Part shown: piece by piece, positions 1-24,000 of the stretch
How positions within the stretch are numbered: the first letter of the stretch is position 1
How the letters are laid out: each line of letters starts with the position of its first letter
Source of the DNA: Metamycoplasma hominis ATCC 23114
GTDB lineage: Bacteria; Bacillota_I; Bacilli_A; Mycoplasmatales; Metamycoplasmataceae
Assembly: GCF_000085865.1 (NCBI RefSeq)
Contig: NC_013511.1
Location: forward strand, 270,516 to 294,515
Length of the DNA stretch: 24,000 bases
Direction: 5' to 3'
Translations under genes and position numbers: made by a program
Notes under the pieces: generated by a model
Databases searched by the model: none
The model's input: only the letters and a program-made list of their open reading frames with translations
Told to the model about the DNA's origin: nothing

Positions 1-3000
1 TTAATTGTTAGATGAAATAATTTTTACCTTTGTTTTGTCTATACCAGTATTTTCTCATTTTATATTACTTGCATCACCTTTATAAATTACTTCTTTAAGG
101 TTTGCGCAATCAGAAAACGCTCTTTCGCCAATTTCTTTTACCGAACCAGGAATAGTAATAGATTCAATGTTTGTATTTGAAAATGCCTCAGCGCCAATTT
201 TTTCAAGACCTTCATTTAAAATTACTTCTTTAAGGTTTTCGCACCAAGAAAACGCTCTTTCGCCAATTTCTTTTACTGTACCAGGAATAGTAATAGATTC
301 AATTTTTGTATGATTAAATGCCCCAGTGCTAATTTTTTCAAGACCTTCATTTAAAATTACTTCTTTAAGGTTTTCGCACCAAGAAAACGCTCTTTCGCCA
401 ATTTCTTTTACTGTACCAGGAATAGTAATAGATTTAATGTTTGGATTTGAAAATGCCTCAGCGCCAATTTTTTCAAGACCTTCATTTAAAATTACTTCTT
501 CAAGGTTTTTGCAACCAGAAAACGCTCTTCCGCCAATTTCTTTTACTGAACCAGGAATAGTAACTTTTGTGGTTTTTTTATCCAAATATGCTAATATCTT
601 TTTATTATTTTTATCAATAAAAAAGTTATCTTTAATTTCAAAATTTTTATTATTTGAATTAATTAAAATATTTGAAATTATTGAATAATTAAATGCCCAA
701 TCGTCTATTTCTTTTACCGAACCAGGAATAGTAATAGATTCAATGTTTGTATTTGAAAATGCATATCAGCCAATTCCTTCAAGGCCTTCATTTAAAATTG
801 CTTCTTTAAGGTTTAGGCAATCAGAAAACGCATATAAGCCAATTTCTTTTACTGAACTAGGAATAGTAATAGATTCAATGTTTGTATTTGAAAATGCATA
901 TCAGCCAATTCCTTCAAGGCCTTCATTTAAAATTGCTTCTTTAAGGTTTAGGCAATCATAAAACGCTCTTTCGCCAATTTCTTTTACTGAACCAGGAATA
1001 GTAATAGATTCAATTTTTGTTTTATAAAATGCCTCAGCACCAATTTTTTCAAGACCTTCATTTAAAATTACTTTCTTAAGGTTTTCGCAACCATAAAACG
1101 CACTTTCACCAATTTTTTTTACTGTACCAGGAATAGTAATAGATTCAATTTTTGTATCTGAAAAAGCACTTTCACCAATTTTTTCAAGACCTTCATTTAA
1201 AATTACTTCTTTAAGGTTTGTGCAACCATTAAACGCATAATCGCCAATTTCTTTTACTGAACCAGGAATAGTAATAGATTCAATTTTTGTATTTCAAAAT
1301 GCACAAGCGCCAATTTTTTCAAGACCTTCATTTAAAATTGCTTCTTTAAGGTTTAGGCAATCATAAAACGCTCTTTCGCCAATTTCTTTTACCGAACCAG
1401 GAATAGTAATAGATTCAATGTTTTTACCAGCAAATGCCTCAGCGCCAATTTTTTCAAGACCTTCATTTAAAATTACTTCTTTAAGGCTTTCGCACCAAGA
1501 AAACGCATATTTGTCAATTTCTTTTATTGAACCAGGAATAGTAATAGATTCAATGTTTGTATTTGAAAATGCATATCAGCCAATTCCTTCAAGGCCTTCA
1601 TTTAAAATTACTTCTTTAAGGTTTGTGCAACCATTAAACGCATCTTCGCCAATTTCTTTTACTGAACCGGGAATAGTAATAGATTCAATTTTTGTATTGC
1701 TAAATGCCCAAGCGCCAATTTTTTCAAGACCTTTATTCAAAATTACTTCTTTAAGGTTTTTGCAACCATAAAACGCTCATTCGCCAATTTCTTTTACTGA
1801 ACCGGGAATAGTAACTTTTGTGGCCTTTTCATCCAAATATGCTAATATTTTTTTATTATTTTTATCAATAAAAAAGTTATCTTTAATTTCGAAATTTTTA
1901 TTATTTGAATTAATTGAAATATGTGAAATTCTTGAAAAATCAAATGCCCTGACGCCAATTTCTTTTACTGAACCAGGAATAGTAATAGATTCAATGTTTG
2001 TATCTAAAAATGCCTTAGCGCCAATTTTTTCAAGACCTTCATTTAAAATTACTTCTTTAAGGTTTGTGCAACCAGAAAATGCACTTTCGCCAATTTCTTT
2101 TACTGTATCAGGAATAGTAATAGATTCAATGTTTGTATCTGAAAATGCAAAAGCGCCAATTTTTTCAAGACCTTCATTTAAAATTACTTTCTTAAGGTTT
2201 TTGCAACCAGAAAACGCACCTGCGCCAATTTCTTTTACTGAACCAGGAATAGTAATAGATTCAATTTTTGGATTATTAATTAACCCAGCAAATGCCGCAT
2301 AGCCAATTTTTTCAAGACCTTTATTTAAAATTACTTCTTTAAGGTTTTCGCAACCATAAAACGCTCATTCGCCAATTTCTTTTACTGAACCAGGAATAGT
2401 AATAGATTCAATTTTTGTTTTATAAAATGCCTCAGCACCAATTTTTTCAAGACCTTTATTTAAAATTACTTCTTTAAGGTTTGGGCACCAAGAAAACGCT
2501 CTTTCATCAATTTCTTTTACTGATCCAGGAATAGTAACTTTTGTGGCCTTTTTATCCAAATATGCTAATATCTTTTTATTATTTTTATCAATAAAAAAGT
2601 TATCTTTAATTTCAAAATTTTTATTATTTGAATTAATTGAAATATGTGAAATTATTGAAAAATCAAATGCCCAAGCGCCAATTTTTTCAAGACCTTCATT
2701 TAAAATTACTTCATGAAGGTCTCCGTGGCCTAAAAACGCACCTTCGCCAATTTCTTTTATTGAACTAGGAATAGTAACTTTTGTGGCCATTCAATCCAAA
2801 TATGATAATATTTTTTTATTATTTTTATCAATAAAAAAGTTATCTTTAATTTCAAAATTTTTATTATTTGAATTAATTAAAATAAGTGTAGTCATTCAAA
2901 AATCAAATGCTCAATTGCCAATTTCCTTTACTGAACCAGGAATAGTAATAATTCCAATTTTTGTATATCTAAATGCTTCAACGCCAATTTTTTCAAGACC

Positions 3001-5160
3001 TTCATTTAAAATTGCTTCATTAAGGTTTGTGCAACCATGAAACGCTCTTTCGCCAATTTCTTTTACTGAACTAGGAATAGTAATAGATTCAATGTTTGTT
3101 TTATAAAATGCCTCAGCACCAATTTTTTCAAGACCTTCATTTAAAGTTACTTCTTTAAGGTTTTCGCAACCAGAAAATGCACCTTCACCAATTTCTTTTA
3201 CTGAACTAGGAATAGTAACTTTTGTGGCCTTTTTATCCAAATATGATAATATTTTTTTATTATTTTTGTCAATAAAAAAGTTATCTTCAATTTCAAAATT
3301 TTTATTATTTGAATTAATTGAAATATGTGAAATGTCTGAAAAATGAAATGCACCAGCGCCAATTTTTTCAAGACCTTCATTTAAAATTACTTCTTTAAGG
3401 TTTTCGCAACCAGAAAATGCACCTTCACCAATTTCTTTTATTGAACTAGGAATAGTAACTTTTGTGGCCTTTTTATCCAAATATGATAATATTTTTTTAT
3501 TATTTTTGTCAATAAAAAAGTTATCTTCAATTTCAAAATTTTTATTATTTGAATTAATTGAAATATCTGAAATCATTGAAAAATCAAATGCTCAATTGCC
3601 TATTTCTTTTACTGTATCAGGAATAGTAATAGATTTAATGTTTGTATTTGAAAATGCCCGAGCGCCAATTTTTTCAAGACCTTCATTTAAAATTACTTCT
3701 TTAAGGATTTTGCAATCAGAAAACGCACTTTCGCCAATTTCTTTTACTGAACTAGGAATAGTAACTTTTGTGGCCTTTTTATCCAAATATGATAATATTT
3801 TTTTATTATTTTTATCAATAAAAAAGTTATCTTTAATTTCAAAATTTTTATTATTTGAATTAATTGAAATATCTGAAATCATTGAAAAATCAAATGATCA
3901 ATTGCCTATTTCTTTTACTGTATCAGGAATAGTAATAGATTTAATGTTTGTACGATCAAATGCCCGAGCGCCAATTTTTTCAAGACCTTCATTTAAAGTT
4001 ACTTCTTTAAGGTTTTCACATCTAAAAAATGCACCAGCGCCAATTTCTTTTATTGAACCAGGAATAGTAATAGATTCAATTTTTTTATCAGCAAATGCAC
4101 TTTCGCCAATTTTTTCAAGACCTTCATTTAAAGTTACTTTCTTAAGGTTTTTGCAACCAGAAAATGTACTTTTGTCAATTGCTTTTATTGAACCAGGAAT
4201 AGTAATAGATTCAATGTTTGTGCTTGAAAATGCACAAGCGCCAATTTTTTCAAGACCTTCATTTAAAGTTACTTTCTTAAGGTTTTCGCAACCAGAAAAT
4301 GTACTTTTGTCAATTTCTTTTATTGAACCAGGAATAGTAATAGATTCAATGTTTGTGCTTGAAAATGCACCAGCGCCAATTTTTTCAAGACCTTCATTTA
4401 AAATTACTTCTTCAAGGCTATGGCAACCAGAAAATGTACTTTTACCAATTTCTTTTACTGAACCAGGAACAGTAATAGATTTAATGTTTGTATTTAAAAA
4501 TGCCTCAGCGCCAATTTTTTCAAGACCTTCATTTAAAATTACTTCTTCAAGGTTTTCACAACCAGAAAACGTACTTTTACCAATTTCTTTTACTGAACTA
4601 GGAATAGTAATAGATTTAATGTTTGTATATTTAAATGCCTCAGCGCCAATTTTTTCAAGACCTTCATTTAAAATTACTTCTTTAATGTTTCTACAACCAG
4701 AAAACGCACCTTCGCCAATTTCTTTTACTGAACCCGCAATAGTAACCGATTGAATAACACTATTAAAAAAAGCATGATTATCAATTTCTGTAATATTTTT
4801 GCCTTGATATTCCTTAGGAATTGTTACTTTAGAATCATTTCCAATAAATTCTGTAATTTTTCAAGTATTTGATTTAGTTAGTTCGAATTTAAATTTTTTA
4901 TTTAAATTTGATGAATCTTCTTCTTTGGTAGGATTTTCTGGTTTAGGTTTATTTTCATCAGGTTTTGAATCTTCTTCTTTTGTAGGATTTTCTGGTTTAG
5001 AATTTGGTTTATTTTCATCAGGCTTTAAATCTTCTTTGTTTTCTTTTGAATTTTGTTTTACTCCATAATCACAAGAAATAGTTGCTAATGGAAGTATAGT
5101 AGTTAATGCTGAAATACTACTTAATATAAGTCATATCTTAATATTTTTTTTATTTTTCAT
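1..5160 (-). CDS. Giant surface lipoprotein built of BspA-type (LRR_5 / TpLRR-like) leucine-rich repeats; 1719 aa with TGA read as Trp
   Basis: ATG at 5160-5158 and TAA at 3-1. I checked every + strand frame-1 triplet across the gaps between the track's minus-strand fragments (55-585, 2365-2790, 2911-3576, 3592-3882) and from 3883 to 5160. No tta/cta (TAA/TAG) occurs, only tca (TGA). All four fragments are in frame with 5160. The N-terminus is MKNKKNIKIWLILSSISALTTILPLATISC|DYG, which is a signal peptide plus lipobox Cys. A K/P/E/N-rich linker follows, then dozens of repeats of the type TIPGSVKEIGERAFSGCENLKEVILNEGLEKIGAEAFSNTNIESI. Confidence 0.85.
60..4740 (-). repeat. Tandem coding repeat array with a basic 135/138-nt unit (45-46 aa, equal to two LRRs)
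   Basis: The strings ccaggaatagtaatagattcaat and gccaattttttcaagaccttcatttaaaattacttctttaaggtt recur along the whole interval. Examples are 745-823 vs 883-961 (period 138) and 4126-4260 vs 4261-4395 (period 135). Confidence 0.9.
3121..3566 (-). repeat. Near-perfect 240-bp tandem duplication inside the LRR gene
   Basis: Line-by-line comparison shows that 3121-3326 and 3361-3566 differ at only 2 positions over about 206 bp. A similar 240-bp pair lies at 2521-2640 vs 2761-2880, and a 306-bp pair at 3539-3660 vs 3845-3966. Confidence 0.85.
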
Positions 5161-5229
5161 TTTCTTACCTTTTATTACTATTTATAATTTTATTTTTATA
5201 TATATTAAAAAGTAAAACCTCTTAATAAT

Positions 5230-5246
5230 AAAAAAAAAAAAAAAAA
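5230..5246 (-). promoter_or_regulatory. Homopolymer A17 on + (T17 on the coding strand), 70-86 nt upstream of the LRR lipoprotein ATG; candidate slipped-strand expression switch
   Basis: Direct count gives a at 5230, ten a at 5231-5240 and six a at 5241-5246, followed by c at 5247. The tract lies in the 5' untranslated/promoter region of the gene starting at 5160. Confidence 0.45.
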
Positions 5247-5335
5247 CAGATTTTTAATATAATTGGTTGAAAAAATGGCTTATTTTCTATATTTTTTATG
5301 CAATTTATATATTCTTAAGGTCAAAAAAATGCAAT

Positions 5336-5367
5336 AAAAAAAACTCAGATTGAACTGAATTTTTTTA
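5336..5367 (-). terminator. Intrinsic terminator downstream of ftsZ (bidirectional shape)
   Basis: The stem is actcag (5343-5348) paired with ctgaat (5355-5360), 6 bp including one wobble, with a 6-nt loop. An A-run and a T-run flank it. It lies about 65 nt after the ftsZ stop codon. Confidence 0.45.
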
Positions 5368-5429
5368 TTTTTTAAATGGCAATAAAGATAATTAATTGCA
5401 TTTTTTTAAAACAGATTTCTTACATCATC

Positions 5430-6575
5430 TTAGTGTTTTAATATATCTGCAAGTTCATCGTTTGAATCTTCATCATTATCCATTGAAAAAAATGATTGTG
5501 TTTTAAATGTTCCTTCAGATACAAAGAATTCCTTTGTTTCATCGTTAACATAATTTAAATCGTCTTTTTTTATTACATTGATTACTTCATCTTGAATTTG
5601 ATCAATGTCTTTAGGAGCATCTTTTCTTAATCCCGTGGCGATTACCGAGACAAATAGCTCACCTAATTTGTTGCTTTCTTCAGATTCTAGAGTTGTTATA
5701 CCAAAAATAATGTTAATTTCATTACCAACAATTTCCCGCATAGCTCCCAAAGCACTTTGAATTTCATTTAAAGTTACTTTTTGAGAAGCACTGAAATTTA
5801 CTATTGCATCGCTAGCCCCAACAACACTTGATTCTAAAATTGGGCTTGTTATTGCAGATGTGATTGCTTTTACAGCCCTATCTTGGCCATTTGCTTGGCC
5901 AATGCCGATTAATGTTTCACCTTTATTTTTAATAATGGTTGATAAATCTGCAAAATCAAGATTAATAATGCTTGGGGTGGCAATAACATCAACTATTGTT
6001 CTAATAGTTTGCTTTAAGACATTATTTGCGCAAATAAATGCATCTGAAAAAGAAATATTTCCATATTGTTGTAATAGTTTATTGTTTGAAATAACAATAT
6101 ATGAATCAACACATTTTTTAATTTCTTGTAAGCCTTGCTTTGCAATTCTCATTCTCTTTGGACCTTCAAAGTCAAACGGAGTAGTTACAACTGCAACTAC
6201 TAAAGCATTGCATTCCTTGGCTATTTGTGCAATCACGGGCGCTGCACCTGTGCCGGTTCCACCACCCATTCCTGCAGTTATAATTACTAGATCAGCTCCT
6301 TGCAATCTACTTTTGATTTCTTCACGTGAAGATTCAGCAGCAGTTTTGCCAATTTCAGGGTTAGCACCCGCGCCAATTCCACGTTCATCACCTAAATGTA
6401 AAACGCATTCTTGAGGAAATTTTGCTAATACTTGTTTATCGGTATTGGCAGCAATAATTTGAAAACTATCTAAATGGCTATTTATCATAGTTTCAACACT
6501 ATTATTTCCGCCACCACCTACTCCAATAACAATTATTTTTGCCACCGGGTTATAATTATTTAATTCTTTTGCCAT
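5430..6575 (-). CDS. ftsZ: Cell division GTPase FtsZ (381 aa)
   Basis: Complete ORF ending in TAA. It carries the tubulin signature GGGTGTGAAPVIA, the N-terminal IGVGGGGNN motif and NTD. An AGGAG RBS sits at 6584-6580. Confidence 0.95.
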   Translation of the reverse strand: MAKELNNYNPVAKIIVIGVGGGGNNSVETMINSHLDSFQIIAANTDKQVLAKFPQECVLHLGDERGIGAGANPEIGKTAAESSREEIKSRLQGADLVIITAGMGGGTGTGAAPVIAQIAKECNALVVAVVTTPFDFEGPKRMRIAKQGLQEIKKCVDSYIVISNNKLLQQYGNISFSDAFICANNVLKQTIRTIVDVIATPSIINLDFADLSTIIKNKGETLIGIGQANGQDRAVKAITSAITSPILESSVVGASDAIVNFSASQKVTLNEIQSALGAMREIVGNEINIIFGITTLESEESNKLGELFVSVIATGLRKDAPKDIDQIQDEVINVIKKDDLNYVNDETKEFFVSEGTFKTQSFFSMDNDEDSNDELADILKH

Positions 6576-6582
6576 AGAACTC

Positions 6583-7650
6583 CTAATTTATATCGTTTAG
6601 CATTAAATTGTAATACTTTTTGGAATTACTATAAACTTCAATTGTAAATAATTCCCTACTAATTTCATTATTTAAAGCATTTTGTTTGATTTGACATTCT
6701 AAAATATTATCTATTGCAAGCATTTCGCAACTTAAATATTCATTTTTGATTTCATATTCAAAGTCACTAAATAAGTTAATTTTTTCATTTTGAATTAATA
6801 TATTATCAAAAAGTTTTAATTCGCTATTGAAATATAATTTGCAAACCTTTGAATCAATTTTATAATTATTAACAAAAGTTGCAACGCTAGTTAATAATTT
6901 ATTTATAAATTCGCCTAATATATTCTTTATTATTGGAGCAACATTGCATTTGTAGGTTAAACAATTTACAACTTCGCTAAATCAATTGCTTTCTGTACTT
7001 AATAAATTGCGTTGTAACATTCTTGCTTTTAATTTGTTTAGTCCTAAATCTAATACTTGGCTTACTATATTTGATTTATTAATGTTTAAAATAAATTTAG
7101 CTTTATCATCTAATACATCAACAAAAATAGCTACTTTTTGTTTTGGATTTTTAAACAAAACTGAATTTGTCTTTAAACTATCTAAGCAAAATATTTTGGC
7201 AATTTTTAAATCGTTGCTACTAAAAATTTCTTGCAATCTTAGACTATTAGCATTTGATATTGTTTTTAAAGAATAAATTTGCTTAATATTAGTTTTTTTA
7301 ACTAGTTTAAATTCCAATATTTTTTGGCCTATATTATTGAAGTTTGATCTAATATTTTTTAAATTACTAATATTAAAATTGTCGTTATTTAAGGTTAATA
7401 GTTTACTATTTATATTTCATTTGCTATCTTCAGACAACATAACAATAACTTCATTTATGCTTGCCGATATTAATTTTTGAATTTCATTCTTTGTTTGCTT
7501 TATAAAATTTTTTATATCGCTTTCAGTTAAATAAATATTATTAATTGCTTTTTTATAAATGCAAAAAGATAAAGTATTAGTTTTTTCCATAACTTCTACT
7601 TCGATACTATTTTTTAAAAATTTATATGCAGCAATAATAATTTTTTTCAT
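6583..7650 (-). CDS. Hypothetical division-cluster protein in the ftsA position (355 aa); highly divergent, possibly a degenerate FtsA-like protein
   Basis: Track fragments 7417-7650 and 6982-7317 are in frame and joined by tca (TGA) at 7417-7419 and 6982-6984. The true stop is TAG at 6585-6583, which overlaps the ftsZ RBS. The gene starts 4 nt after the rsmH stop. I could see no canonical actin-fold DxG phosphate motifs. Confidence 0.7.
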
Positions 7651-9187: not shown

Positions 9188-9263
9188 GCTAGTTTAGCTC
9201 AGTTGGTAGAGCAATTGATTCGTAATCAATGGGTCGGGGGTTCGATCCCTCTAACTAGCACCA
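9188..9263 (+). tRNA. tRNA-Thr (anticodon CGT), CCA encoded
   Basis: The 76-nt cloverleaf was folded by hand. The acceptor is gctagtt/aactagc, the anticodon arm is attga-ttCGTaa-tcaat, and the T-loop is ttcgatc. Confidence 0.9.
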
Positions 9264-9353
9264 AATGCACAAAGTAAGCGCCAAAAATAAAAAATAAAAA
9301 ATTTATTAAAAAATTAATTTTTTTTAGTTATAATAATTAAGCATTTATTAAGT

Positions 9354-9428
9354 GCCGACTTAGCTCAGCGGTAGAGCAGCTGGCTGTTAACCAGTTTGTC
9401 GTTGGTTCAATCCCAATAGTCGGCGCCA
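9354..9428 (+). tRNA. tRNA-Asn (anticodon GTT), CCA encoded
   Basis: 75 nt. The acceptor is gccgact/agtcggc, the anticodon loop is ctGTTaa, and the T-loop is ttcaatc. Confidence 0.9.
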
Positions 9429-9432
9429 TTAT

Positions 9433-9508
9433 GGCCCTATGGTGAAGCGGTTAACACATATGGTTTTCATCCATACATTCGTGGGTTCAAGTCCCGCTAG
9501 GGTCACCA
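9433..9508 (+). tRNA. tRNA-Glu (anticodon TTC), CCA encoded
   Basis: 76 nt. The acceptor is ggcccta/tagggtc, the anticodon arm is tatgg-ttTTCat-ccata, and the T-loop is ttcaagt. Confidence 0.9.
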
Positions 9509-9510
9509 TT

Positions 9511-9586
9511 GGAGAATTAGCTCAGCTGGGAGAGCATTGCCCTTACAAGGCAAGGGTCGTGGGTTCGAGCCCCTCATTCTCCACCA
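9511..9586 (+). tRNA. tRNA-Val (anticodon TAC), CCA encoded
   Basis: 76 nt. The acceptor is ggagaat/attctcc, the anticodon arm is ttgcc-ctTACaa-ggcaa, and the T-loop is ttcgagc. Confidence 0.9.
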
Positions 9587-13472: not shown

Positions 13473-14009
13473 TTATTTTTTTAAACTAATTTTATTTATA
13501 AATTCAACTTCTATTCCATTTCATTTAGCAGTGATTGTATATTTTATATATTCTTTACCTTTGTTTGTATGTTTTTTAACTGAGATTTTTTCAAATGTTA
13601 ATTCTTCTGGTAATTTGTATTCAAATTTAGAAATATCATCTTTAATTGCTTCATCAACTGTTTTTTTATCGCCAATGTATTTTACAGTTACTAATTTTCC
13701 AAAATGTTCTTTTAAAACTATTTTTTGCATAAAGTTTTTATCTTCATTTATCTTTTCATTAACATTGACACGTTTAGATGACATATTGCTAAAATCATTA
13801 TTTTGAAAATCTTGAATAGAAACTATAGAAACTCTAATTGATTTTACTTTATTATTTTCTATTTTAGGAAATGAAAAGATATAAACATTTTGTAAATTAA
13901 CCATATGTTTTGTATATTCAAACGCAAACATTGAATGTTTTAATTTTAATGTTGTTTTATCATAATCAAAATTTTGAACAGAAATGTAATTATCACCTTT
14001 TTCAATCAT
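13473..14009 (-). CDS. Hypothetical protein (178 aa from ATG 14009; a TTG at 14021 is also possible) with no signal peptide; possibly the frameshifted C-terminal part of the upstream lipoprotein
   Basis: The track ORF 13521-14021 reads through TGA at 13521-13523 to TAA at 13475-13473. It overlaps the end of the upstream gene (13990) by 20-32 nt in a different frame. No GGAG-type RBS precedes it. Confidence 0.55.
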
Positions 14010-15744
14010 TTCTTTTTTCAATGTCTTTGCTTAAAAGACTAATATTTTTCAATTTTTCTACAAACATAAATGTTGAAATATTTTTAACTTCATCGTTAGA
14101 TAATTTATCTTTGTTTTCTTTGAAATATTTCAAGAATGCATCTTTATTTAATTCTTTTACATCTTGGTCTTCAATAGTTGATGTTGGGGCTTGTTGGTCA
14201 TCTATTTCAGTTTCATTATTTTGTTTTCTAATCTTATTATATTCATCAACACCCAATTTACTTAAATCAATTTCAACAAATTTTGATTTCTTAGTACTAT
14301 TTTCATAATCTTTAAATGAAACAGTAAGATTAATCAAACACTTATCGCCTTCAAATTTTAATTCGCCTAATGTGTAATTAATTTCACTGTTTTTATTATT
14401 AATTCAGTATGATTTATTTTCTAATTTGTCAATAGATTTCTTTGAAATGTAATATTTGTCTTTACTATAAAATGGATAAATTGACGTTTCTAAAGCTTTG
14501 TTTAAAAGTTCATCTTGTTTTTCAAATGATAGCAATGCAATATTATCTAAACCGTTTGCAAATTTATCTAATTTAACTTCAATAGTTTTAGATTCACTTA
14601 TTTCTTTATTTAAAAGACTTGACAAAGTTAAAGTCAATGTTATTTTTTTATCTTCAACTTTTAAATTACTTAATGCTACTGAATATGAGGCTTGGTCGTA
14701 GCCTTGAACTGCAAAATTTGGCTTTTTATCAAAATTGTTTATTTGTTTATTTTTTAAAATATCTTGATATGACTTGGCATTTGCAACTAAAACATTTGTT
14801 TTTTCAATTTGATCTTTTAGTTCTTTTCTTGCCTTATCTATTTTTTCTTGCAATTCTGGAGTTAATTTAAAACCTTTGATTTCATAAATATATTTTTGAC
14901 TTGAGATTTGTTTATTTTTATATGATAAATAGTAAAGAATTGACAAGTCATATGTTCCATCTTCTCCTGTATTTTTAGTAATCTTTAATGAATCTTTAAC
15001 AATTGAAAAGTTTTCTTTAATAGTTTTTAAAAATACTTTTGATGTGTCCGCGTCTTTTATGTATGTTTCTTGTTTGTTAGGATAGTCAAAGACTAGATTT
15101 TTTGAAACTTCTTTAAAATCTTCTTCTGAAACTTGATCTAATCCAGAATCTAAGTTTCCCAAATTACTTTCATAAACCTTGTTTGAAATAATATGTTTAC
15201 CATTTTGTTTAAAAATTGCAACTTTATATTTCAAAATAAAGTTTCCTTTTTCATCTTTTGTTAATAATAATTTAGAGTTTAACTTGTCTCCACTTCTAAG
15301 AGGTTTTTCAGGATTTACCAATTGAACAGATACGCCTGATTTAGAATTTCATTTAGCAATAGCAAATTCTTGATTTTTAAAATCATATGCCCCTTCAAAA
15401 GCCATGATATTTTTGTTATTTCTTTCAAAAAGAATTTTGTATTTGTCTAGATTATTTAAAACCTTTTTAATAAATTCTAGATTTTCAGCATTTCATGTTA
15501 TTTTTGAAATTGATTCTTCACCATATTTATCAGCATCATTTTTATTTGTTTCTTCTTCATGACTTGGATCTTCTGGTTTAACTTCAGGTGTTGTTCCTGG
15601 CTTTTCACCTTCTGGTTTCTTAGGTTCTTCTGGTTTAACTTCAGGTTTCTTTGTTTTTATGCAACCTGCTGCCACTAATGGTATTGCAAAAACCGAGGTT
15701 GCAACACTACCTAAGGCTAATAAAATTTTTGTATGTTTTTTCAT
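13990..15744 (-). CDS. Surface lipoprotein of unknown function (584 aa)
   Basis: The N-terminus is MKKHTKILLALGSVATSVFAIPLVAAGC|IKT (signal peptide plus lipobox), followed by the linker KPEVKPEEPKKPEGEKPGTTPEVKPEDP. Fragments 15493-15744, 14404-15321 and 14002-14337 are in frame, joined by TGA codons. TAA lies at 13992-13990. Confidence 0.8.
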
Positions 15745-16022: not shown

Positions 16023-16098
16023 TGGTACATCCTGTGGGGCTCGAACCCACGACCCAGGGATTAAGAGTCCCTTGCTCTGCCAACTGAGCTAAGGATGC
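16023..16098 (-). tRNA. tRNA-Lys (anticodon CTT), CCA encoded
   Basis: The reverse complement folds with acceptor gcatcct/aggatgt (G1-U72 wobble), anticodon arm aggga-ctCTTaa-tccct and T-arm gtggg-ttcgagc-cccac. Confidence 0.88.
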
Positions 16099-16198
16099 GT
16101 GTTTTTGCGTTATTTATTATAACATAACTAAAACATTTTTTTAAAATTAAACAAATAAAAAGTAGCGTTTGCTACTTTTTTGTTACAACTTGATGATA

Positions 16199-16283
16199 TG
16201 GTACGCGAGGAGGGACTTGAACCCTCACGCCGCAAAGCATTAGTGCCTAAAACTAACGTGTCTGCCAATTTCACCACTCGCGC
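16199..16283 (-). tRNA. tRNA-Leu (anticodon TAG), long variable arm, CCA encoded
   Basis: 85 nt. The acceptor is gcgcgag/ctcgcgt, the anticodon arm is ttagt-ttTAGgc-actaa, the variable arm is tgctttgcggcgt, and the T-arm is gaggg-ttcaagt-ccctc. Confidence 0.88.
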
Positions 16284-16286
16284 ATA

Positions 16287-16362
16287 TGGTGCCGTTTATA
16301 GGACTTGAACCTACGACCTACTGATTACAAGTCAGTTGCTCTGCCAACTGAGCTAAAACGGC
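16287..16362 (-). tRNA. tRNA-Thr (anticodon TGT), CCA encoded
   Basis: 76 nt. The acceptor is gccgttt/aaacggc, the anticodon arm is actga-ctTGTaa-tcagt, and the T-loop is ttcaagt. Confidence 0.9.
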
Positions 16363-19976: not shown

Positions 19977-22900
19977 TTAATCTTTGTTGTTCAAGTCAAT
20001 ATATTCAATATCGCCGTTTGAAATAACTTTAATTAACCCTAAATTATTTAAATATCCATATAGATCATTTAATTTTGAAATATTATTTTCTGTTCTTGCT
20101 ATTAGTAATGTTTTTAAAATAGTATTAGTTAAATTGTTTTTTAAAATAGAACTTTTTGAATTGTTTAAAACTTGTTTTATTAAATCAAACATTTCCAACG
20201 AACTTATTTCTGATATTTTTCTATTGTCACAATCCTTTGGCATTCTAAAAGTATTTGGCTTTGAAACATCATGATAAAAGATTTCGCCATCAGGATTTAT
20301 TAATTTTTCTAACATTTTATTATTAACAAAATAATTTATAGAATTTTCACAAAGAAATTTATAAGTATATTCGTCTTTATTTAAAGCTAGGTTCACGAAT
20401 ATATCTTTTATCATTTTATTGATTTCTTTTTCTCTATAAGTATGGCCATAATTAAACATTTGTTTAACAATTTCATAGCCATTTAACAAAGGATTTCTTT
20501 TGTTTGACTTTTCTATAAAATTTAGTGTCTTACGATATGAGTAATTAAACGGAAGTCATTCTTCAAAATTAAAATTATCTCTTTTTTCAATAATTTCAAA
20601 TTGACTATTTTCAATCGTTTTATATTCATTTTGCTTTACAACAAATTTTTTTTGTTTAATTTGATTTACTTTATCAACTATTTTTTCTAATTCTCTTTTT
20701 TTGTTTTTAAATCAATTTAAAGATCAAATTCTGTGAATTATTCAACCTCTTGACTCAAGTAGCATTTGTCTAATCGCATCTCTATCACGAGCGCTTTTTG
20801 ATGAATGATATGTGGCGCCATCGCATTCAATACCTAAAATATATTTCGATGGATTTTTATCATCAACAATTGCTAAATCTATTTTAAATTTTGAACATCC
20901 CACTTGAGTATTTACTTTAAATCCAAGCTTCTTAAGTTCATCATAAACTTGGATTTCAAACTCACTATCAAATATTTTAGTGTCATCTTGTAATATATCA
21001 TCTGATTTGCTGTCGTAACCAAATTCTGCAAATTGTAAATATTGCTTTAAAAATCTTAGTCCTTCGTTTTTTAAATCGTCTACTTTTAAATCAGAATATG
21101 ATATTGAAGATACAACAATAGTTGCTTCCTTGGCTCTACTTATTGCGACGTTTAGTCTCTTTTCACCGCCAACATTATTTAATGGTCCAAAGAATCTTGA
21201 CAATCTTCCGTTTTTATCCCAACTATTTGTAATTCCTAAAATAATGATGTCTCTTTCATCACCTTGAACACTTTCAATGTTCTTAACAAAAATTTTATTT
21301 TCTGTGTCTAAATCCATATATTCAGGATTTTCATTCATAAATAAGAATAATTTGTGATCAATTAAGTTAGCTTGTTTTAAATTAAACGTTACAACTCCAA
21401 ATGTTTTTGTATTGCCATAATAATCTTTTAATTGCTTTATTAATTCAATGATTCTATTTGCTTCAATTTCGTTTGTTTGATCTTCATAAATTCCATTAAC
21501 CTTAATAAATGAAACGCCTTCAAAAGGAAGCAATTCCCCGTCTTTCTTGGCGGTTTTTTGATATGTTGGAAAAGTAATTAATTTATTATCATAAACGAAC
21601 TTATTTGAAGGCAAAATTAATTCTTCAAATTTTGAACGATAGTGTCATTTTAATGCAACTTGTCTAAATGAGCTTTGCATTCTTTCAAGAAGTGAATCAT
21701 AATCATTTTCTTCGTTGACTATTTCTTCGTCTTCGTTTGGTTCTTGCTCGCTAGACATAGTTTTAAAGAAATTAGTTGGTGGCAATTGATTTATATCACC
21801 AGCAATAATAATTTGTTTAGCCTTAATCATTGATATCAAGGCATTTTCTGTCGTTAATTGAGAAGCCTCATCAAAAATTACACTATCAAATGTAATGCTA
21901 CTATCCGCTAAATATGTACTTAACGAAGAAGGAGACATCATAAAACAAGGCTTAATATTTTGAATTAAATTTGGAATTTCTTTAAATAGTTTTCTGATCG
22001 GTTTTTTATTTCTAACTTTTGAATATTCCTTCTTTAAAATTTCTAATTCATCATTGTATATTGTCGAATTTAACGTAGGCAAATTGTTTGATAAATTTTC
22101 AATTATTTTGAATTTAGCAATTTCATTTAGCTTTAAACAAGAGTCTTTAAAAACATTGATAATTTTTTCATATTCTCTATCGTTTCAATCTGCTAAATCA
22201 ATTGATAAATAGTAATCAATTAAAAGTTGATAAAATCTTTTATTAAAAATATTTTCAATACTATTTTGTTTTAAACAATCAATATCTAGCAATTCAATAG
22301 CATCCACAAAATCATTAGTAAAGGGGTTGTCTTTTAATTCTTGTCTTGATTTTATATAACTACAATATGCTTCAGGATATTCATCAGAATCAATTAAAAA
22401 ATTTAGTTTTTTTATAAAATCATTAACTTTATAATTTGAATTTGAATAATCTACATATTTATTGTTAAAGTAGTCATTGAATTTATCTTCAAAAGTCATT
22501 GAATTTTTATATAAATTTATGTAATTATTTGTTAATTGAATATGGCTTAATAAAAAGTTAAAAAAGCTAATTTTTAAATTTTGATCAAATTTTAATTCAC
22601 TTAATTGATTATTAATAATTTCATATTTAGAAAATATATTTAGTTGTTGCTTTAAACTATTAAGATCCATTTCATTATAGTTTTCTTTAAATAAAAAAGG
22701 AATTTTATTTGTTAAAAGCGTAATTGCATTTTTAGCAAGTTGAATGTTGTTTAATGCCACTAAATCTTTTAACAAGTTTTTGTAATTTAAATTAGAAGAT
22801 ATAAAATTAATTTTTAATTCTTTTTTTATTGCTCTATATCTCTTTGAAAAAAGACGCTTAAAAATATTATTTCGAGATTTCATAAAATCTAAATTCTTAT

Positions 22901-24000
22901 AAATTTCACTATTAAAAATATTTTGATTATATCTTGAAAGAATTCAGTCAATATCAGGTTGAATTCTTTCTTTTTGCAATAGTATTTCATTTAGGGTTTG
23001 TGTTGCATTTGTTTCATAATACGAAAAAATTTCTAAATATTTTGGATTTATATCTATATCTTGTATATTTGAAAAAATTTTAAAAAATGAATTAAATAAT
23101 GAATAATTGCTATTTTTAATATATTGTTGATAATTGTTTGGAATTTCAAGATCTAAGAAATTGATTAGGCTTTGAATTTCATTAATTAAATGGCTAGAAA
23201 TCTCTTTAATGTTTTCTAAATCTTGAAGCTTTACATCCAAAATCGAAAGCCCGTATCATAAACTTTCCTTAGCGTTGAAATTTATATTTTTATAATTTAA
23301 ATTAAACTTATTTAAACTACTTTGAATTTTAACAAACTGTTCATTATCCATTTTTTCAAAATCTCTAATATCGAAATTTATACCTTTTGTATTGGCAAGT
23401 AATTTTTGATAATCACCAATCATTAAATATAATGAGCGACCTAATGGTTTTCTATTTGATAATATCTTTCTAACAAAATCATTCATTTTTTCTAACGAGT
23501 CGCTATATAAGTAATCATTATTAGCAATAACTTCATTACTTACTTTTTTAAATTTTTGACCGTCTTGCAATGTTTCATACAAATCATTAGAAAAATCTTT
23601 TTTATTGCTGTTATTGCTATGAATAAGTAAAATAAAATTAGCAAATCCAAGATTTTGGATTGATTTATAAACAACATCCAAAGCAGCCTTTTTTTCAGCA
23701 ACAAATAGAACCTTTTTATCTCTTGCAATTAATTCACTTATTATATTTGCTATAGTTTGAGATTTTCCAGTTCCTGGAGGACCTTGAATAATAAAACTAT
23801 TTCCTTTAATTGCTGATTGAATAGCTGCTTCTTGCGAAGAATTAGTCATTAGGCAGTGATAATAGCCTTTAGGAGAAACTATATTATCAACTTCTTCTTC
23901 AGAATACAAATATTCAGAACTAAAAACATTGTTAATCCCTGTCATTGCATTCATAATTTCTGAATTAATGATATTATCTTTATTTTTATCAACATCTAAA
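19977..24000 (-). CDS. Giant Upf1-like SF1 helicase fused to a Vsr/DUF559-like (PD-(D/E)xK) nuclease and a DUF3320-like C-terminal region; 5' end lies outside the window (more than 1340 aa seen)
   Basis: Six track fragments (19977-20489, 20742-21614, 21645-22082, 22185-22883, 22944-23240, 23256-23954) share one frame. I checked every junction: only TGA intervenes, and the apparent fragment starts are internal TTG/ATG codons. Helicase motifs are motif I GPPGTGKSQT (23783-23760), VLFVAEKKAALDVV, motif II DEASQ (21872-21858), GDINQLPPT, HYRS, VQGDERD and RLNVAISRAK. The nuclease core is KIDLAIVDD...LGIECDGATYHSSKSARDRDAIRQMLLESRGWIIHRIWSLNW. The frame stays open to position 24000, and the stop is TAA at 19979-19977. 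Confidence 0.88.

What the first reader, a model, noticed from the sequence alone, without database searches (positions are those of the whole stretch)
1..5160. A single 1719-aa BspA-type LRR lipoprotein occupies 5.2 kb
What the track shows as four small minus-strand ORFs plus six long plus-strand ORFs is one minus-strand frame. It runs from a lipoprotein signal (…LPLATISC) to a TAA at positions 3-1. The body consists of dozens of 22-23-aa repeats with the BspA/LRR_5 pattern (IP.SV..IG..AF..C..L..V.L.EGLE.IG..AF). In other organisms, surface proteins of this class are adhesins or host-interaction factors. One of this size, lipid-anchored in a wall-less bacterium and placed immediately downstream of the division operon, is unusual and has probably been mis-annotated as fragments.
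Basis: partly seen in the sequence, partly recalled or inferred. Interest (0 to 1): 0.7.

Follow-up and report, generated by a model that had tools for sequence, protein, structure and literature searches.

The report
Known Mycoplasma hominis LRR lipoprotein MHO_2260
The 5.2-kb stretch is one gene for a giant leucine-rich-repeat surface lipoprotein of the human genital bacterium Mycoplasma hominis, but it is already annotated as a single gene (MHO_2260) and its strain-to-strain variability has been published, so the finding is correct but not new.

Summary
With genetic code 4, window 1-5160 (minus strand) is one 1719-aa ORF. It has a lipoprotein signal, a disordered K/E/P-rich linker and about 59 BspA-type repeats (Pfam LRR_5, E=0, 1876 bits). 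AlphaFold models fold as LRR_5 solenoids.

The organism is Metamycoplasma (Mycoplasma) hominis PG21, and the gene is MHO_2260. It was annotated in 2009 as one CDS, a "predicted lipoprotein", at RefSeq NC_013511 270515-275675, which is exactly 5160 nt. So "mis-annotated as fragments" is wrong: the fragments come only from reading the sequence with the standard code.

Calcutt & Foecking (2015) reported that this locus carries one to four repeat-lipoprotein genes depending on strain. M. hominis BspA-like proteins have also been discussed in the Trichomonas symbiosis literature. A published microarray table detects and shows regulation of MHO_2260-probe signal during HeLa infection.

I found no paper describing these details:
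- An A8 tract in codons 4-6 that is A7 (frameshifted) in two paralogues, as in the M. hominis Vaa switch.
- An upstream poly-T tract of 14-22 nt across assemblies.
- A 135-nt unit indel and a gene-conversion patch between near-identical strains.
- Locus expansion by tandem duplication, which leaves chimeric rsmE'-'ftsZ ORFs.

The function (adhesin or variable coat) is inferred, not shown.

The parts
1..5160 (-). MHO_2260 CDS: 1719-aa BspA-type (LRR_5) lipoprotein in code 4; stop TAA at 3-1
   Evidence: ORF and codons; LRR_5, E=0; PG21 locus tag and 5160-nt RefSeq coordinates
5071..5160 (-). Signal peptide plus lipobox (aa 1-30, MKNKKNIKIWLILSSISALTTILPLATIS|C); Cys30 is the predicted lipid-attachment site
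   Evidence: PROSITE-style rule matched. The same cassette is conserved in all paralogues and alleles.
5144..5151 (-). Poly(A)8 tract in codons 4-6 (AAA AAA AAt). It is in frame (ON) here. It is A7 (frameshift, 12-aa product) in two paralogues of other strains.
   Evidence: Adding one A restores an 806-aa lipoprotein ORF in L030. The Vaa A8-ON / A7- or A9-OFF precedent is in PMC524362.
4906..5070 (-). Low-complexity K/E/N/P-rich linker (aa 31-85), including an imperfect 54-nt tandem repeat
   Evidence: TRF 4912-5036; composition. The equivalent residues 1-122 of allele P0002 have pLDDT below 50.
4750..4905 (-). N-terminal cap of the LRR domain (aa 86-137, KFKFELTKSNTWKITEFIGNDSKVTIPKEYQGKNITEIDNHAF...)
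   Evidence: The same N-cap motif occurs in LRR lipoproteins of an uncultured code-4 mollicute.
94..4749 (-). LRR_5 solenoid array (aa 138-1689). About 59 units of alternating 23 aa (SITIPGSVKEIGEgAFsgCxNLK) and 22 aa (EVILNEGLEKIGAeAFxxTNIE). DNA period is 135 nt.
   Evidence: AlphaFold model of aa 524-749: pLDDT 89.5, pTM 0.84. Foldseek top hits are 4h09, 4cp6, 4gt6, 4fs7 and 6mlx.
3463..3588 (-). One of seven 42-aa insert modules (F[DHN][FY]S..S.ISINSNNKNFEI.DNFFIDKNNKKIL.YLDKKAT). The others are at 3769-3894, 3223-3348, 2782-2907, 2542-2667, 1819-1944 and 568-693. They divide the array into eight blocks.
   Evidence: In the model each module forms three short beta-strands continuous with the solenoid.
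4..93 (-). Non-repeat C-terminal tail (EVIYKGDASNIKWENTGIDKTKVKIISSNN), conserved in all paralogues, with no hydrophobic anchor
5230..5246 (-). Poly(T)17 tract, 70-86 nt upstream of the ATG. Its length differs between assemblies that are otherwise nearly identical here.
   Evidence: T17 in the window, L003 and L004; T15 in L001; T14 in L002 and L022; T16 in L022 copy 2; T18 in L023; T20 in L020; T22 in L021.
5187..5216 (-). Sigma-70-like promoter candidate (TTTACT, 18-nt spacer, TAAAAT) between the poly-T tract and the start codon. This is a consensus match only.
   Evidence: 9 of 12 matches; such sites are not enriched over shuffles
5333..5369 (-). A/U-rich hairpin followed by U8, downstream of the ftsZ stop codon: a candidate intrinsic terminator separating ftsZ from MHO_2260
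   Evidence: dG -10.3 kcal/mol, z -2.5; 6 of 200 shuffles fold as well
5430..6575 (-). ftsZ (MHO_2270), the upstream neighbour; identical to PG21 CAX37361.1

Best explanation
The feature is MHO_2260 of Metamycoplasma hominis PG21, a 186-kDa (mature) surface lipoprotein.

Shown by sequence and models:
- A lipobox signal peptide is followed by a roughly 55-aa disordered K/E/P-rich spacer.
- After the spacer comes a roughly 1,600-aa BspA-type (LRR_5) beta-solenoid.
- The solenoid consists of about 59 repeats in eight blocks, separated by seven conserved 42-aa three-strand insert modules.
- It ends in a short conserved tail with no second anchor.

Shown by comparison with other strains:
- The gene belongs to a family of one to at least four tandem paralogues that occupy the ftsZ-rsmE interval.
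- All paralogues share the same 5' cassette (promoter region, signal peptide, spacer) and the same 3' tail.
- They differ in the number of 135-nt double-repeat units, giving products of 430-2816 aa.
- Repeat number and sequence change by unit indels and by intragenic gene conversion.
- The locus itself expands by tandem duplication.

Inferred:
- After acylation of Cys30 the protein is held on the outer face of the single membrane. It presents a long LRR surface that binds host, or possibly Trichomonas vaginalis, surface molecules, as other BspA-type proteins do.
- Expression is probably switched by slipped-strand changes in the poly(A)8 tract in codons 4-6 (A8 is ON, as in this window; A7 is OFF). 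It may be modulated by the upstream poly(T) tract.
- The result would be size- and phase-variable surface display, like that known for the M. hominis adhesin Vaa.
For: Identity and annotation:
- FtsZ is identical to PG21 CAX37361.1.
- Gene order and locus tags MHO_2240-2390 match.
- RefSeq coordinates give a 5160-nt CDS, with ftsZ 269 nt upstream, as in the window.

Domain and fold:
- LRR_5 matches with E=0.
- PDB sequence hits are 4fs7, 4gt6, 4h09, PcpA 4cp6 and TpLRR 6mlx.
- AlphaFold gives pLDDT 89.5 and pTM 0.84 for window aa 524-749.
- It gives pLDDT 72.7 for the 998-aa allele, with residues 1-122 disordered.
- Foldseek top hits are the same LRR_5 structures, with probability 1.0.

Lipoprotein: the lipobox rule is met, and lgt (MHO_3410) is listed for PG21.

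Family and variability:
- The interval holds 1-4 paralogues with conserved ends in 17 loci.
- The LBD-4 four-gene array versus the single PG21 gene is published.
- Window versus L001: one 135-nt indel, plus a clustered 10-SNP patch whose L001 version is identical (0 of 131 mismatches) to another repeat 675 nt away.
- The chimeric ORF in L022 joins 21 aa of the RsmE N-terminus to 111 aa of the FtsZ C-terminus.

Switch candidates:
- A8 is found in 28 of 30 cassettes and A7 in 2. Adding one A restores a complete 806-aa lipoprotein ORF.
- The poly-T tract ranges from 14 to 22 nt, while three independent PG21-type data sets agree on T17.
- Vaa uses A8 for ON and A7 or A9 for OFF.
- BspA-like genes of Ca. 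M. girerdii phase-vary by simple repeats.

Expression: MHO_2260 microarray probes are up 1.5-2.9x at 4-48 h and down 2.1-3.5x at 336 h in HeLa infection with strain FBG.
Against: - No binding partner, surface localisation, acylation or switching has been demonstrated for this protein. I found no proteomic evidence.
- Homopolymer length differences between assemblies could partly be sequencing or assembly errors. The technologies of most assemblies are unknown to me.
- The A7 state was seen only in paralogues of other strains. It was not seen in MHO_2260 itself: all five PG21-type copies are A8.
- The poly-T tract lies upstream of the best promoter-like match rather than between its hexamers. 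An effect on transcription is therefore speculative, and promoter-like matches are not enriched over shuffles.
- The microarray used strain FBG, and its probes may cross-hybridise among paralogues.
Confidence: 0.7

Rival explanations
1. The protein acts mainly as a variable protective coat or antigenic decoy, not as a specific adhesin. Long or short LRR rods would shield the membrane from antibody, complement or phage. Size and phase variation would serve immune evasion, as with length-dependent shielding by Vsa lipoproteins in M. pulmonis (my own knowledge of that system).
For: - Sizes range widely, from 430 to 2816 aa, and copy number varies while the ends stay conserved.
- Repeats are homogenised by gene conversion rather than diversified at particular ligand-contact positions.
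- Signal is down-regulated in chronic (336 h) infection.
Against: LRR_5 relatives with known function are binders or adhesins: BspA as summarised, and PcpA (4cp6) among the closest structures. The two roles are not mutually exclusive.
Confidence: 0.2
2. The family is chiefly a symbiosis factor. It would recognise Trichomonas vaginalis, possibly through BspA-BspA-type interactions, and would have been acquired laterally among trichomonad-associated mycoplasmas, as Bailey et al. 2023 hypothesised.
For: - In the published network analysis, M. hominis BspAs cluster with those of Ca. M. girerdii and Ca. M. trichamica. LGT and a role in cell-cell recognition were proposed.
- T. vaginalis BspA genes respond to mycoplasmas.
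- The gene uses TGG for 7 of 21 Trp codons, against 13% genome-wide (nominal P=0.014, but the repeats are not independent). Its G+C is 28.5% against 25.6% for the rest of the window.
Against: - In my searches no named Ca. M. girerdii or Trichomonas protein appears in the top 120 hits.
- The nearest non-hominis relatives (48-54% identity) come from unnamed code-4 metagenome contigs of 24.5% G+C. They have the same lipoprotein N-cap and C-tail design, and one contig carries an ADI-family gene.
[quoted passage not shown] - PG21 is a genital isolate and was not reported as a trichomonad symbiont.
Confidence: 0.1
3. The long ORF is an assembly artefact or a decaying pseudogene that is not made as one protein.
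For: - Short-read contigs break 168 aa into the gene (L003, L004).
- A near-identical strain differs by one repeat unit and a mosaic patch, which could in principle be a mis-assembly.
Against: - There are 1719 codons with no TAA or TAG in 26% G+C DNA.
- The same architecture is intact in many independent complete genomes.
- PacBio assemblies resolve the same family.
- A transcript signal is detected.
- The conserved ends and in-frame unit indels (multiples of 135 nt) indicate selection for an open frame.
Confidence: 0.03

Closest known systems
MHO_2260 of M. hominis PG21 and the LBD-4 four-gene 'repeat-containing lipoprotein' array (Pereyre et al. 2009, PMC2751442; Calcutt & Foecking 2015, PMC4342427)
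   Same: It is the same gene: same locus, same length (5160 nt), same predicted-lipoprotein status. The strain-variable single-gene versus multi-gene arrangement that I re-derived from 17 loci is the one reported there.
   Different: Those papers do not describe the following, which I added here:
- the LRR_5/BspA nature of the repeats
- the unit structure
- the homopolymer tracts
- the gene-conversion patch
- the rsmE'-'ftsZ duplication junctions
BspA of Tannerella forsythia, TpLRR and Pfam LRR_5 proteins, including S. pneumoniae PcpA (4cp6) and the Bacteroides/Eubacterium structures 4fs7, 4gt6 and 4h09
   Same: They share the repeat family (LRR_5), the 22-23-aa unit and the predicted solenoid fold. 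They are surface-located, and those with known function act in adhesion or ligand binding.
   Different: - This protein is anchored by an N-terminal lipid, not by a choline-binding domain, a T9SS C-terminal domain or a cell-wall anchor.
- It is several times longer, with about 59 repeats in eight blocks.
- It uses code 4.
- No ligand is known.
BspA-like families of Ca. Mycoplasma girerdii (26-28 genes) and T. vaginalis (about 900 genes)
   Same: They have the same domain type, are expanded and length-variable surface families in urogenital or oral microbes, and include phase-variable members in Ca. M. girerdii.
   Different: - The girerdii proteins are dispersed in the genome, mostly have C-terminal transmembrane anchors and switch by CA dinucleotide repeats.
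- The M. hominis genes lie in tandem at one locus, are lipoproteins and carry homopolymer tracts.
Vaa adhesin of M. hominis (Zhang & Wise 1996/1997; summarised in PMC524362)
   Same: Same species; both are surface lipoproteins with a 5' poly(A) tract in which A8 is in frame and A7 is out of frame. Both vary in size by gain or loss of repeated cassettes.
   Different: - The sequences and folds are unrelated; Vaa is not an LRR protein.
- Vaa is a single-copy gene.
- Switching is shown experimentally for Vaa and only inferred here.
Lmp large membrane proteins of M. hominis
   Same: Both are large, repeat-containing, strain-variable surface proteins of the same species.
   Different: Lmp proteins have an N-terminal transmembrane helix and 57-aa / 0.5-kb repeats. 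MHO_2260 has a lipobox and 45-aa (135-nt) double-LRR units, so it is not an Lmp.

Membership tests
Pfam LRR_5 (BspA-type / TpLRR leucine-rich repeat) | Profile-HMM match above the curated gathering score | tested here: met
   PF13306: 1875.6 bits against a cut-off of 27.7, E=0, 20 stretches
Pfam LRR_5 (BspA-type / TpLRR leucine-rich repeat) | Right-handed LRR solenoid fold like the solved LRR_5 structures | tested here: met
   AlphaFold model of window aa 524-749: pLDDT 89.5. Foldseek best hits are 4h09, 4cp6, 4gt6, 4fs7 and 6mlx, with probability 1.0 and E from 1e-9 to 1e-7. The result is the same for allele P0002. TM-scores are modest (0.4-0.5).
Pfam LRR_5 (BspA-type / TpLRR leucine-rich repeat) | BspA-like function (binding of host matrix or receptors, TLR2 stimulation, co-aggregation) | not testable with these tools
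   Only literature on other proteins is available
Bacterial lipoprotein (Lgt / SPase II substrate) | Positively charged n-region, hydrophobic h-region and lipobox ending in Cys within residues 15-35 | tested here: met
   MKNKKNIKIWLILSSISALTTILPLATIS-C30 matches the PROSITE-style pattern. It was predicted to be a lipoprotein in the PG21 annotation.
Bacterial lipoprotein (Lgt / SPase II substrate) | Actual acylation and signal cleavage | not testable with these tools
   lgt (MHO_3410) is listed for PG21. There is no biochemical evidence for MHO_2260.
Mycoplasma size- and phase-variable surface lipoprotein systems (Vaa-type) | Size variation by gain or loss of in-frame tandem repeat units | tested here: met
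   A 135-nt unit indel separates the window from L001. Paralogues range from 430 to 2816 aa with the same ends.
Mycoplasma size- and phase-variable surface lipoprotein systems (Vaa-type) | Homopolymer tract in the 5' coding region whose length polymorphism shifts the frame while the downstream ORF stays intact | tested here: inconclusive
   The A8 tract is present in the window gene (5144-5151). A7 occurs in two paralogues (L029, L030), and adding one A restores 806 aa. No A7 or A9 was seen in MHO_2260 itself, and sequencing error is not excluded.
Mycoplasma size- and phase-variable surface lipoprotein systems (Vaa-type) | High-frequency reversible ON/OFF switching within clonal populations | not testable with these tools
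   This needs colony immunoblots or deep sequencing of clones
M. hominis Lmp family | N-terminal transmembrane helix and the 57-aa Lmp repeat motif | tested here: not met
   A lipobox is present instead of a TM anchor, and the repeats are 22/23-aa LRRs. MHO_2260 is not among the listed Lmp genes.
Ca. M. girerdii-type BspA-like proteins | C-terminal transmembrane anchor (23 of 26 members) | tested here: not met
   The C-terminal 30 aa (EVIYKGDASNIKWENTGIDKTKVKIISSNN) are hydrophilic.

The most novel reading that the evidence does not exclude
The MHO_2260 family may be a previously uncharacterised phase- and size-variable BspA-like system of M. hominis. Each tandem paralogue would be switched independently by a Vaa-type poly(A)8 frameshift tract in the signal-peptide codons, and possibly by an upstream poly(T) tract of 14-22 nt. 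Repertoires would be remodelled by 135-nt unit slippage, intragenic gene conversion and whole-unit tandem duplication between rsmE and ftsZ. The displayed LRR rods would set tropism for human epithelium versus Trichomonas vaginalis.
Probability: 0.25. Interest if true: 0.55.

Novelty: already known. Interest (0 to 1): 0.25.

Why it matters
As a discovery it adds little. The gene has had a locus tag and a "predicted lipoprotein" label since 2009, and the variability of its locus was reported in 2015.

It matters in three practical ways.
- It shows that the fragmented ORF track is purely a genetic-code artefact. Any scan of this genome must use table 4.
- MHO_2260 is among the largest predicted lipoproteins of a minimal human pathogen, and it has no experimentally assigned function. 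M. hominis is linked to preterm birth and lives inside T. vaginalis, so a variable BspA-type surface family is a sensible candidate for adhesion, immune evasion or symbiont recognition.
- The homopolymer tracts and recombination footprints found here give concrete, cheap experiments for testing whether the family is phase-variable.

Tried and rejected
- The scan of GTDB representative genomes with the protein returned only distant Clostridia and Anaeroplasma LRR proteins (27-34% identity) and no M. hominis locus. The source region is probably masked there, so the scan said nothing about the species.
- The exact 1719-aa and 1674-aa sequences are not in the protein collection, so I could not read an annotation from it. 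I identified the gene through the literature instead.
I used a TGA-free segment and an allele instead.
- Two metagenome scans gave 0 hits and 1 hit, too few to build a natural distribution of tract lengths.
- One literature search with loose term matching returned only plant LRR papers.
- The consensus terminator scan found nothing because it requires G-C pairs. Direct folding found an A/U-rich hairpin.
- I rejected the Lmp family because of its different anchor and repeat type.
- I rejected real antisense genes. The six plus-strand ORFs are mirror images of the stop-free repeat frame.
- I rejected an operon-function link to cell division. The ftsZ-rsmE interval is simply a plasticity hotspot that in other strains also holds DnaB-like or GmrSD-like insertions.

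Full report
**Observation**

Translating the minus strand of window 1-5400 with table 11 gives a frame broken only by TGA codons. With table 4 the same frame is open from ATG (5160-5158) to TAA (3-1), a product of 1719 aa. The frame holds 14 TGA, 7 TGG and no internal TAA or TAG.

The antisense ORFs are mirror images of a stop-free repeat and have no independent support.

Code 4 is confirmed by the neighbours. Twelve flanking genes contain 28 in-frame TGA and only 2 TGG.

**Anatomy**

- The N-terminus MKNKKNIKIWLILSSISALTTILPLATISC fits the lipoprotein rule, with Cys30 as the predicted attachment site.
- Residues 31-85 form a K/E/N/P-rich low-complexity spacer that contains a 54-nt imperfect tandem repeat.
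- Residues 86-137 form an N-terminal cap.
- Residues 138-1689 consist of about 59 alternating 23-aa and 22-aa units. At the DNA level this is a 135-nt period at 85-91% identity.
- The array is interrupted seven times by a conserved 42-aa module (F-D-F-S..ISINSNNKNFEIKDNFFIDKNNKKILSYLDKKAT).
- A 30-aa hydrophilic tail ends the protein.
- The mature protein is 1690 aa, 186 kDa, pI 5.2.

Pfam LRR_5 matches with E=0 and 1875.6 bits. By sequence, the closest solved structures are the LRR_5 proteins 4fs7, 4gt6, 4h09, 4fd0 and 4fdw, pneumococcal PcpA (4cp6) and T. pallidum TpLRR (6mlx).

A TGA-free segment of the window protein (aa 524-749, two insert modules plus repeats) folds without an alignment at pLDDT 89.5 and pTM 0.84. 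It forms one continuous solenoid in which each insert contributes three short strands. A 998-aa allele folds at pLDDT 72.7, with residues 1-122 disordered. Foldseek returns the same LRR_5 structures first for both models.

**Identity**

The window's FtsZ is identical to CAX37361.1 of Metamycoplasma hominis ATCC 23114 / PG21. The supplement of the PG21 genome paper gives this order: rplM MHO_2240, MHO_2250, MHO_2260, ftsZ MHO_2270, MHO_2280, mraW MHO_2290, mraZ MHO_2300, then ABC transporters, truB MHO_2350 and ribF MHO_2380. That matches the window. MHO_2260 is listed as "Conserved hypothetical protein, predicted lipoprotein".

The PLVAAGC lipobox that the paper notes for MHO_2340 is present in the window's 13990-15744 gene. 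A microarray table lists MHO_2260 as YP_003302763 at NC_013511 [270515:275675] on the minus strand, and ftsZ at [275944:277090]. That is a 5160-nt CDS with ftsZ starting 269 nt further on, exactly the geometry of the window.

The gene has therefore been annotated as one CDS since 2009. The suspicion of fragment mis-annotation is refuted. A related assembly (GCA_049915335.1) also carries it as one 1674-aa gene.

**What is already published**

- The LBD-4 draft annotation already labels such genes "Leucine rich repeats (6 copies)".
- Bailey et al. 2023 include M. hominis proteins in a 159-member mollicute BspA family. They propose lateral transfer among trichomonad-associated mycoplasmas and a role in symbiosis.
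- Fettweis et al. 2014 and Costello et al. 2017 describe the 26-28 BspA-like genes of Ca. M. girerdii. Several of these phase-vary through CA repeats.
- Henrich et al. 2017 give microarray data for strain FBG in HeLa cells. MHO_2260 probes are up 1.46-1.95x at 4 h, up 2.1-2.9x at 48 h and down 2.1-3.5x at 336 h.

**Comparative analysis of the locus**

I collected 17 M. hominis loci through exact matches to FtsZ, MraZ and two homologues.

The ftsZ-rsmE interval holds one gene (487, 645, 1674 or 1719 aa), two genes (541+474/519; 498+779+...), four genes (998, 430, 733, 597 aa; the LBD-4 type) or three very large genes (at least 1117 visible of a called 2816, then 1686 and 2246 aa in CP026341.1). 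Some strains carry unrelated insertions in the same interval, with DnaB_C or GmrSD_N genes.

All family members share the signal peptide, the spacer and the C-terminal tail ...GDASNINWENTGIDKTKVKIISSNN.

In CP026341.1 the copies are separated by identical 129-aa chimeric ORFs. Each consists of the first 21 aa of RsmE fused to the last 111 aa of FtsZ, with a 3-aa microhomology (EIQ) at the junction. So the whole unit, [ftsZ 3' end - promoter - LRR gene - rsmE 5' end], was tandemly duplicated.

**Micro-variation**

The window gene and the L001 allele differ by exactly one 135-nt unit (gene nt 759-893) and by 12 substitutions. Ten of these cluster at nt 3517-3634. The L001 version of that patch is identical over 131 nt to another repeat of the window gene at nt 4185. 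This is the signature of intragenic gene conversion, or less likely of a mosaic assembly.

**Candidate switches**

*Coding poly(A) tract.* Codons 4-6 contain A8 (window 5144-5151). Of 30 5' cassettes inspected, 28 have A8 and 2 have A7: L029 (strain with CP011538.1) and L030. With A7 the product stops after 12 aa. Adding one A restores a complete 806-aa lipoprotein ORF with the family tail. This is the arrangement described for the M. hominis adhesin Vaa, where A8 is ON and A7 or A9 is OFF.

*Upstream poly(T) tract.* A poly(T) tract lies 70-86 nt upstream of the ATG (window 5230-5246, T17). In other assemblies with nearly identical flanks it measures 14, 14, 15, 16, 17, 17, 18, 20 and 22 nt. 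The tract reads T17 in three independent PG21-type data sets. A second cassette type has short interrupted T-runs instead.

The tract lies just upstream of the best sigma-70-like match (5216-5187). That match is a consensus hit only and is not enriched over shuffles. A poly-T16 77 bp upstream of another M. hominis surface-protein gene has been noted before.

An A/U-rich hairpin with a U8 tail follows ftsZ (dG -10.3 kcal/mol, z -2.5). It suggests that MHO_2260 is transcribed mainly from its own promoter.

All of this is inference from static assemblies. Homopolymer errors cannot be excluded.

**Relatives outside M. hominis**

With the full protein, hits below the M. hominis alleles (56-66% identity) are very long LRR_5 proteins of gut Clostridia and similar organisms, at 24-31% identity.

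With a 226-aa block, the next-best relatives (48-54% identity) are unnamed metagenome proteins on code-4 contigs of about 24.5% G+C. These have a lipoprotein signal, a TP-rich spacer, the same N-cap (FEF...GTLKI.KYLG.D..V.IPSEY.GK.VT.IG..AF) and a related C-tail. Searching with one of them finds only M. hominis among named organisms.

No named Ca. M. girerdii or Trichomonas protein reached the top 120 hits. This does not refute the published clustering, but it shows that a closer uncultured mollicute lineage exists.

The gene's TGG share (7 of 21 Trp codons, against 13% genome-wide) and its G+C (28.5% against 25.6%) are mildly atypical. These are weak signals because the repeats are not independent.

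**Mechanism**

Shown:
- One open code-4 gene.
- An LRR_5 domain and a predicted solenoid.
- Lipobox, disordered spacer and conserved ends.
- Family expansion and size variation.
- A detected transcript signal.

Inferred:
- Lipid anchoring with surface display of a long LRR rod.
- Ligand binding or adhesion, by analogy with BspA and PcpA.
- ON/OFF switching through the A8 tract, and possibly modulation by the T-tract.

A shield or decoy role and a Trichomonas-recognition role are live alternatives and are not mutually exclusive. An artefact or pseudogene reading is very unlikely.

**Verdict**

The domain assignment is correct. The claim of mis-annotation is wrong, and the gene and the variability of its locus are already in the literature. 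Novelty: already known. Interest is low to moderate, and rests mainly on the untested phase-variation features and the lack of any assigned function.

Noticed in passing
window 13473-15744 (minus strand; junction near 13990-14021): The lipoprotein gene MHO_2340 (584 aa, PLVAAGC lipobox) and MHO_2330 (182 aa) are one gene of 744-885 aa in other strains. In PG21 and L001 it is split by an extra A in GAAAAAAG (A6 here, A5 implied by ...SKDIEKEMIEKGDNY in other strains). This is a homopolymer frameshift that could be phase variation or a pseudogene. The gene is also strongly size-variable between strains.
   Followed up: partly
L022 3492-3881 and 9344-9733 (CP026341.1): Two identical 129-aa chimeric ORFs, each made of the RsmE N-terminal 21 aa plus the FtsZ C-terminal 111 aa with an EIQ microhomology at the junction. 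They mark the joints of a tandem duplication of the whole LRR-gene unit.
   Followed up: yes
L027, L028, L032 (ftsZ-rsmE interval, about 13.9-19 kb in locus coordinates): In some strains the same interval also holds unrelated insertions: a DnaB_C-containing gene set in L027, and genes of 491, 429 and 647 aa with GmrSD_N (defence-island-like) in L028 and L032. The site is therefore a general plasticity hotspot.
   Followed up: no
L001 16576-16959: In GCA_049915335.1 the rsmE homologue downstream of the LRR gene reads as a truncated 127-aa ORF, against 220 aa in other strains. This suggests a frameshift or an assembly error.
   Followed up: no
window 19977-24000 (minus strand; ORF runs off the window end): MHO_2390 is a protein of more than 1325 aa with SF1 helicase domains (AAA_11, AAA_12) and a C-terminal MTES_1575/DUF559 endonuclease-like domain. 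It is annotated only as "conserved hypothetical" in PG21.
   Followed up: partly
window 6583-7650 (minus strand): The 355-aa gene between rsmH and ftsZ (MHO_2280, "hypothetical") has no Pfam match. It sits where ftsA is usually found in dcw clusters. It may be a highly diverged FtsA-like protein.
   Followed up: partly
window 9188-9586 (+) and 16023-16362 (-): There are two tRNA clusters: Thr-CGT, Asn, Glu and Val-TAC on the plus strand, and Lys-CTT, Leu-TAG and Thr-TGT on the minus strand. They flank the ABC-transporter and lipoprotein block.
   Followed up: yes
window 1-5160: Trp codon usage in the LRR gene is 14 TGA to 7 TGG, against 28 to 2 in the neighbouring genes and 87% to 13% genome-wide. 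G+C is 28.5% against 25.6%. This may be a trace of foreign origin or merely repeat copying.
   Followed up: partly
L033 5456-6595 (ENA ERZ27319425, code-4 contig, 24.7% G+C): An uncultured mollicute carries a related LRR_5 gene (52% identity) directly after lspA (signal peptidase II). The called product begins MKDEKTEK..., without a signal peptide. Related proteins from other samples (P0178, P0184) have a full lipoprotein signal.
   Followed up: partly
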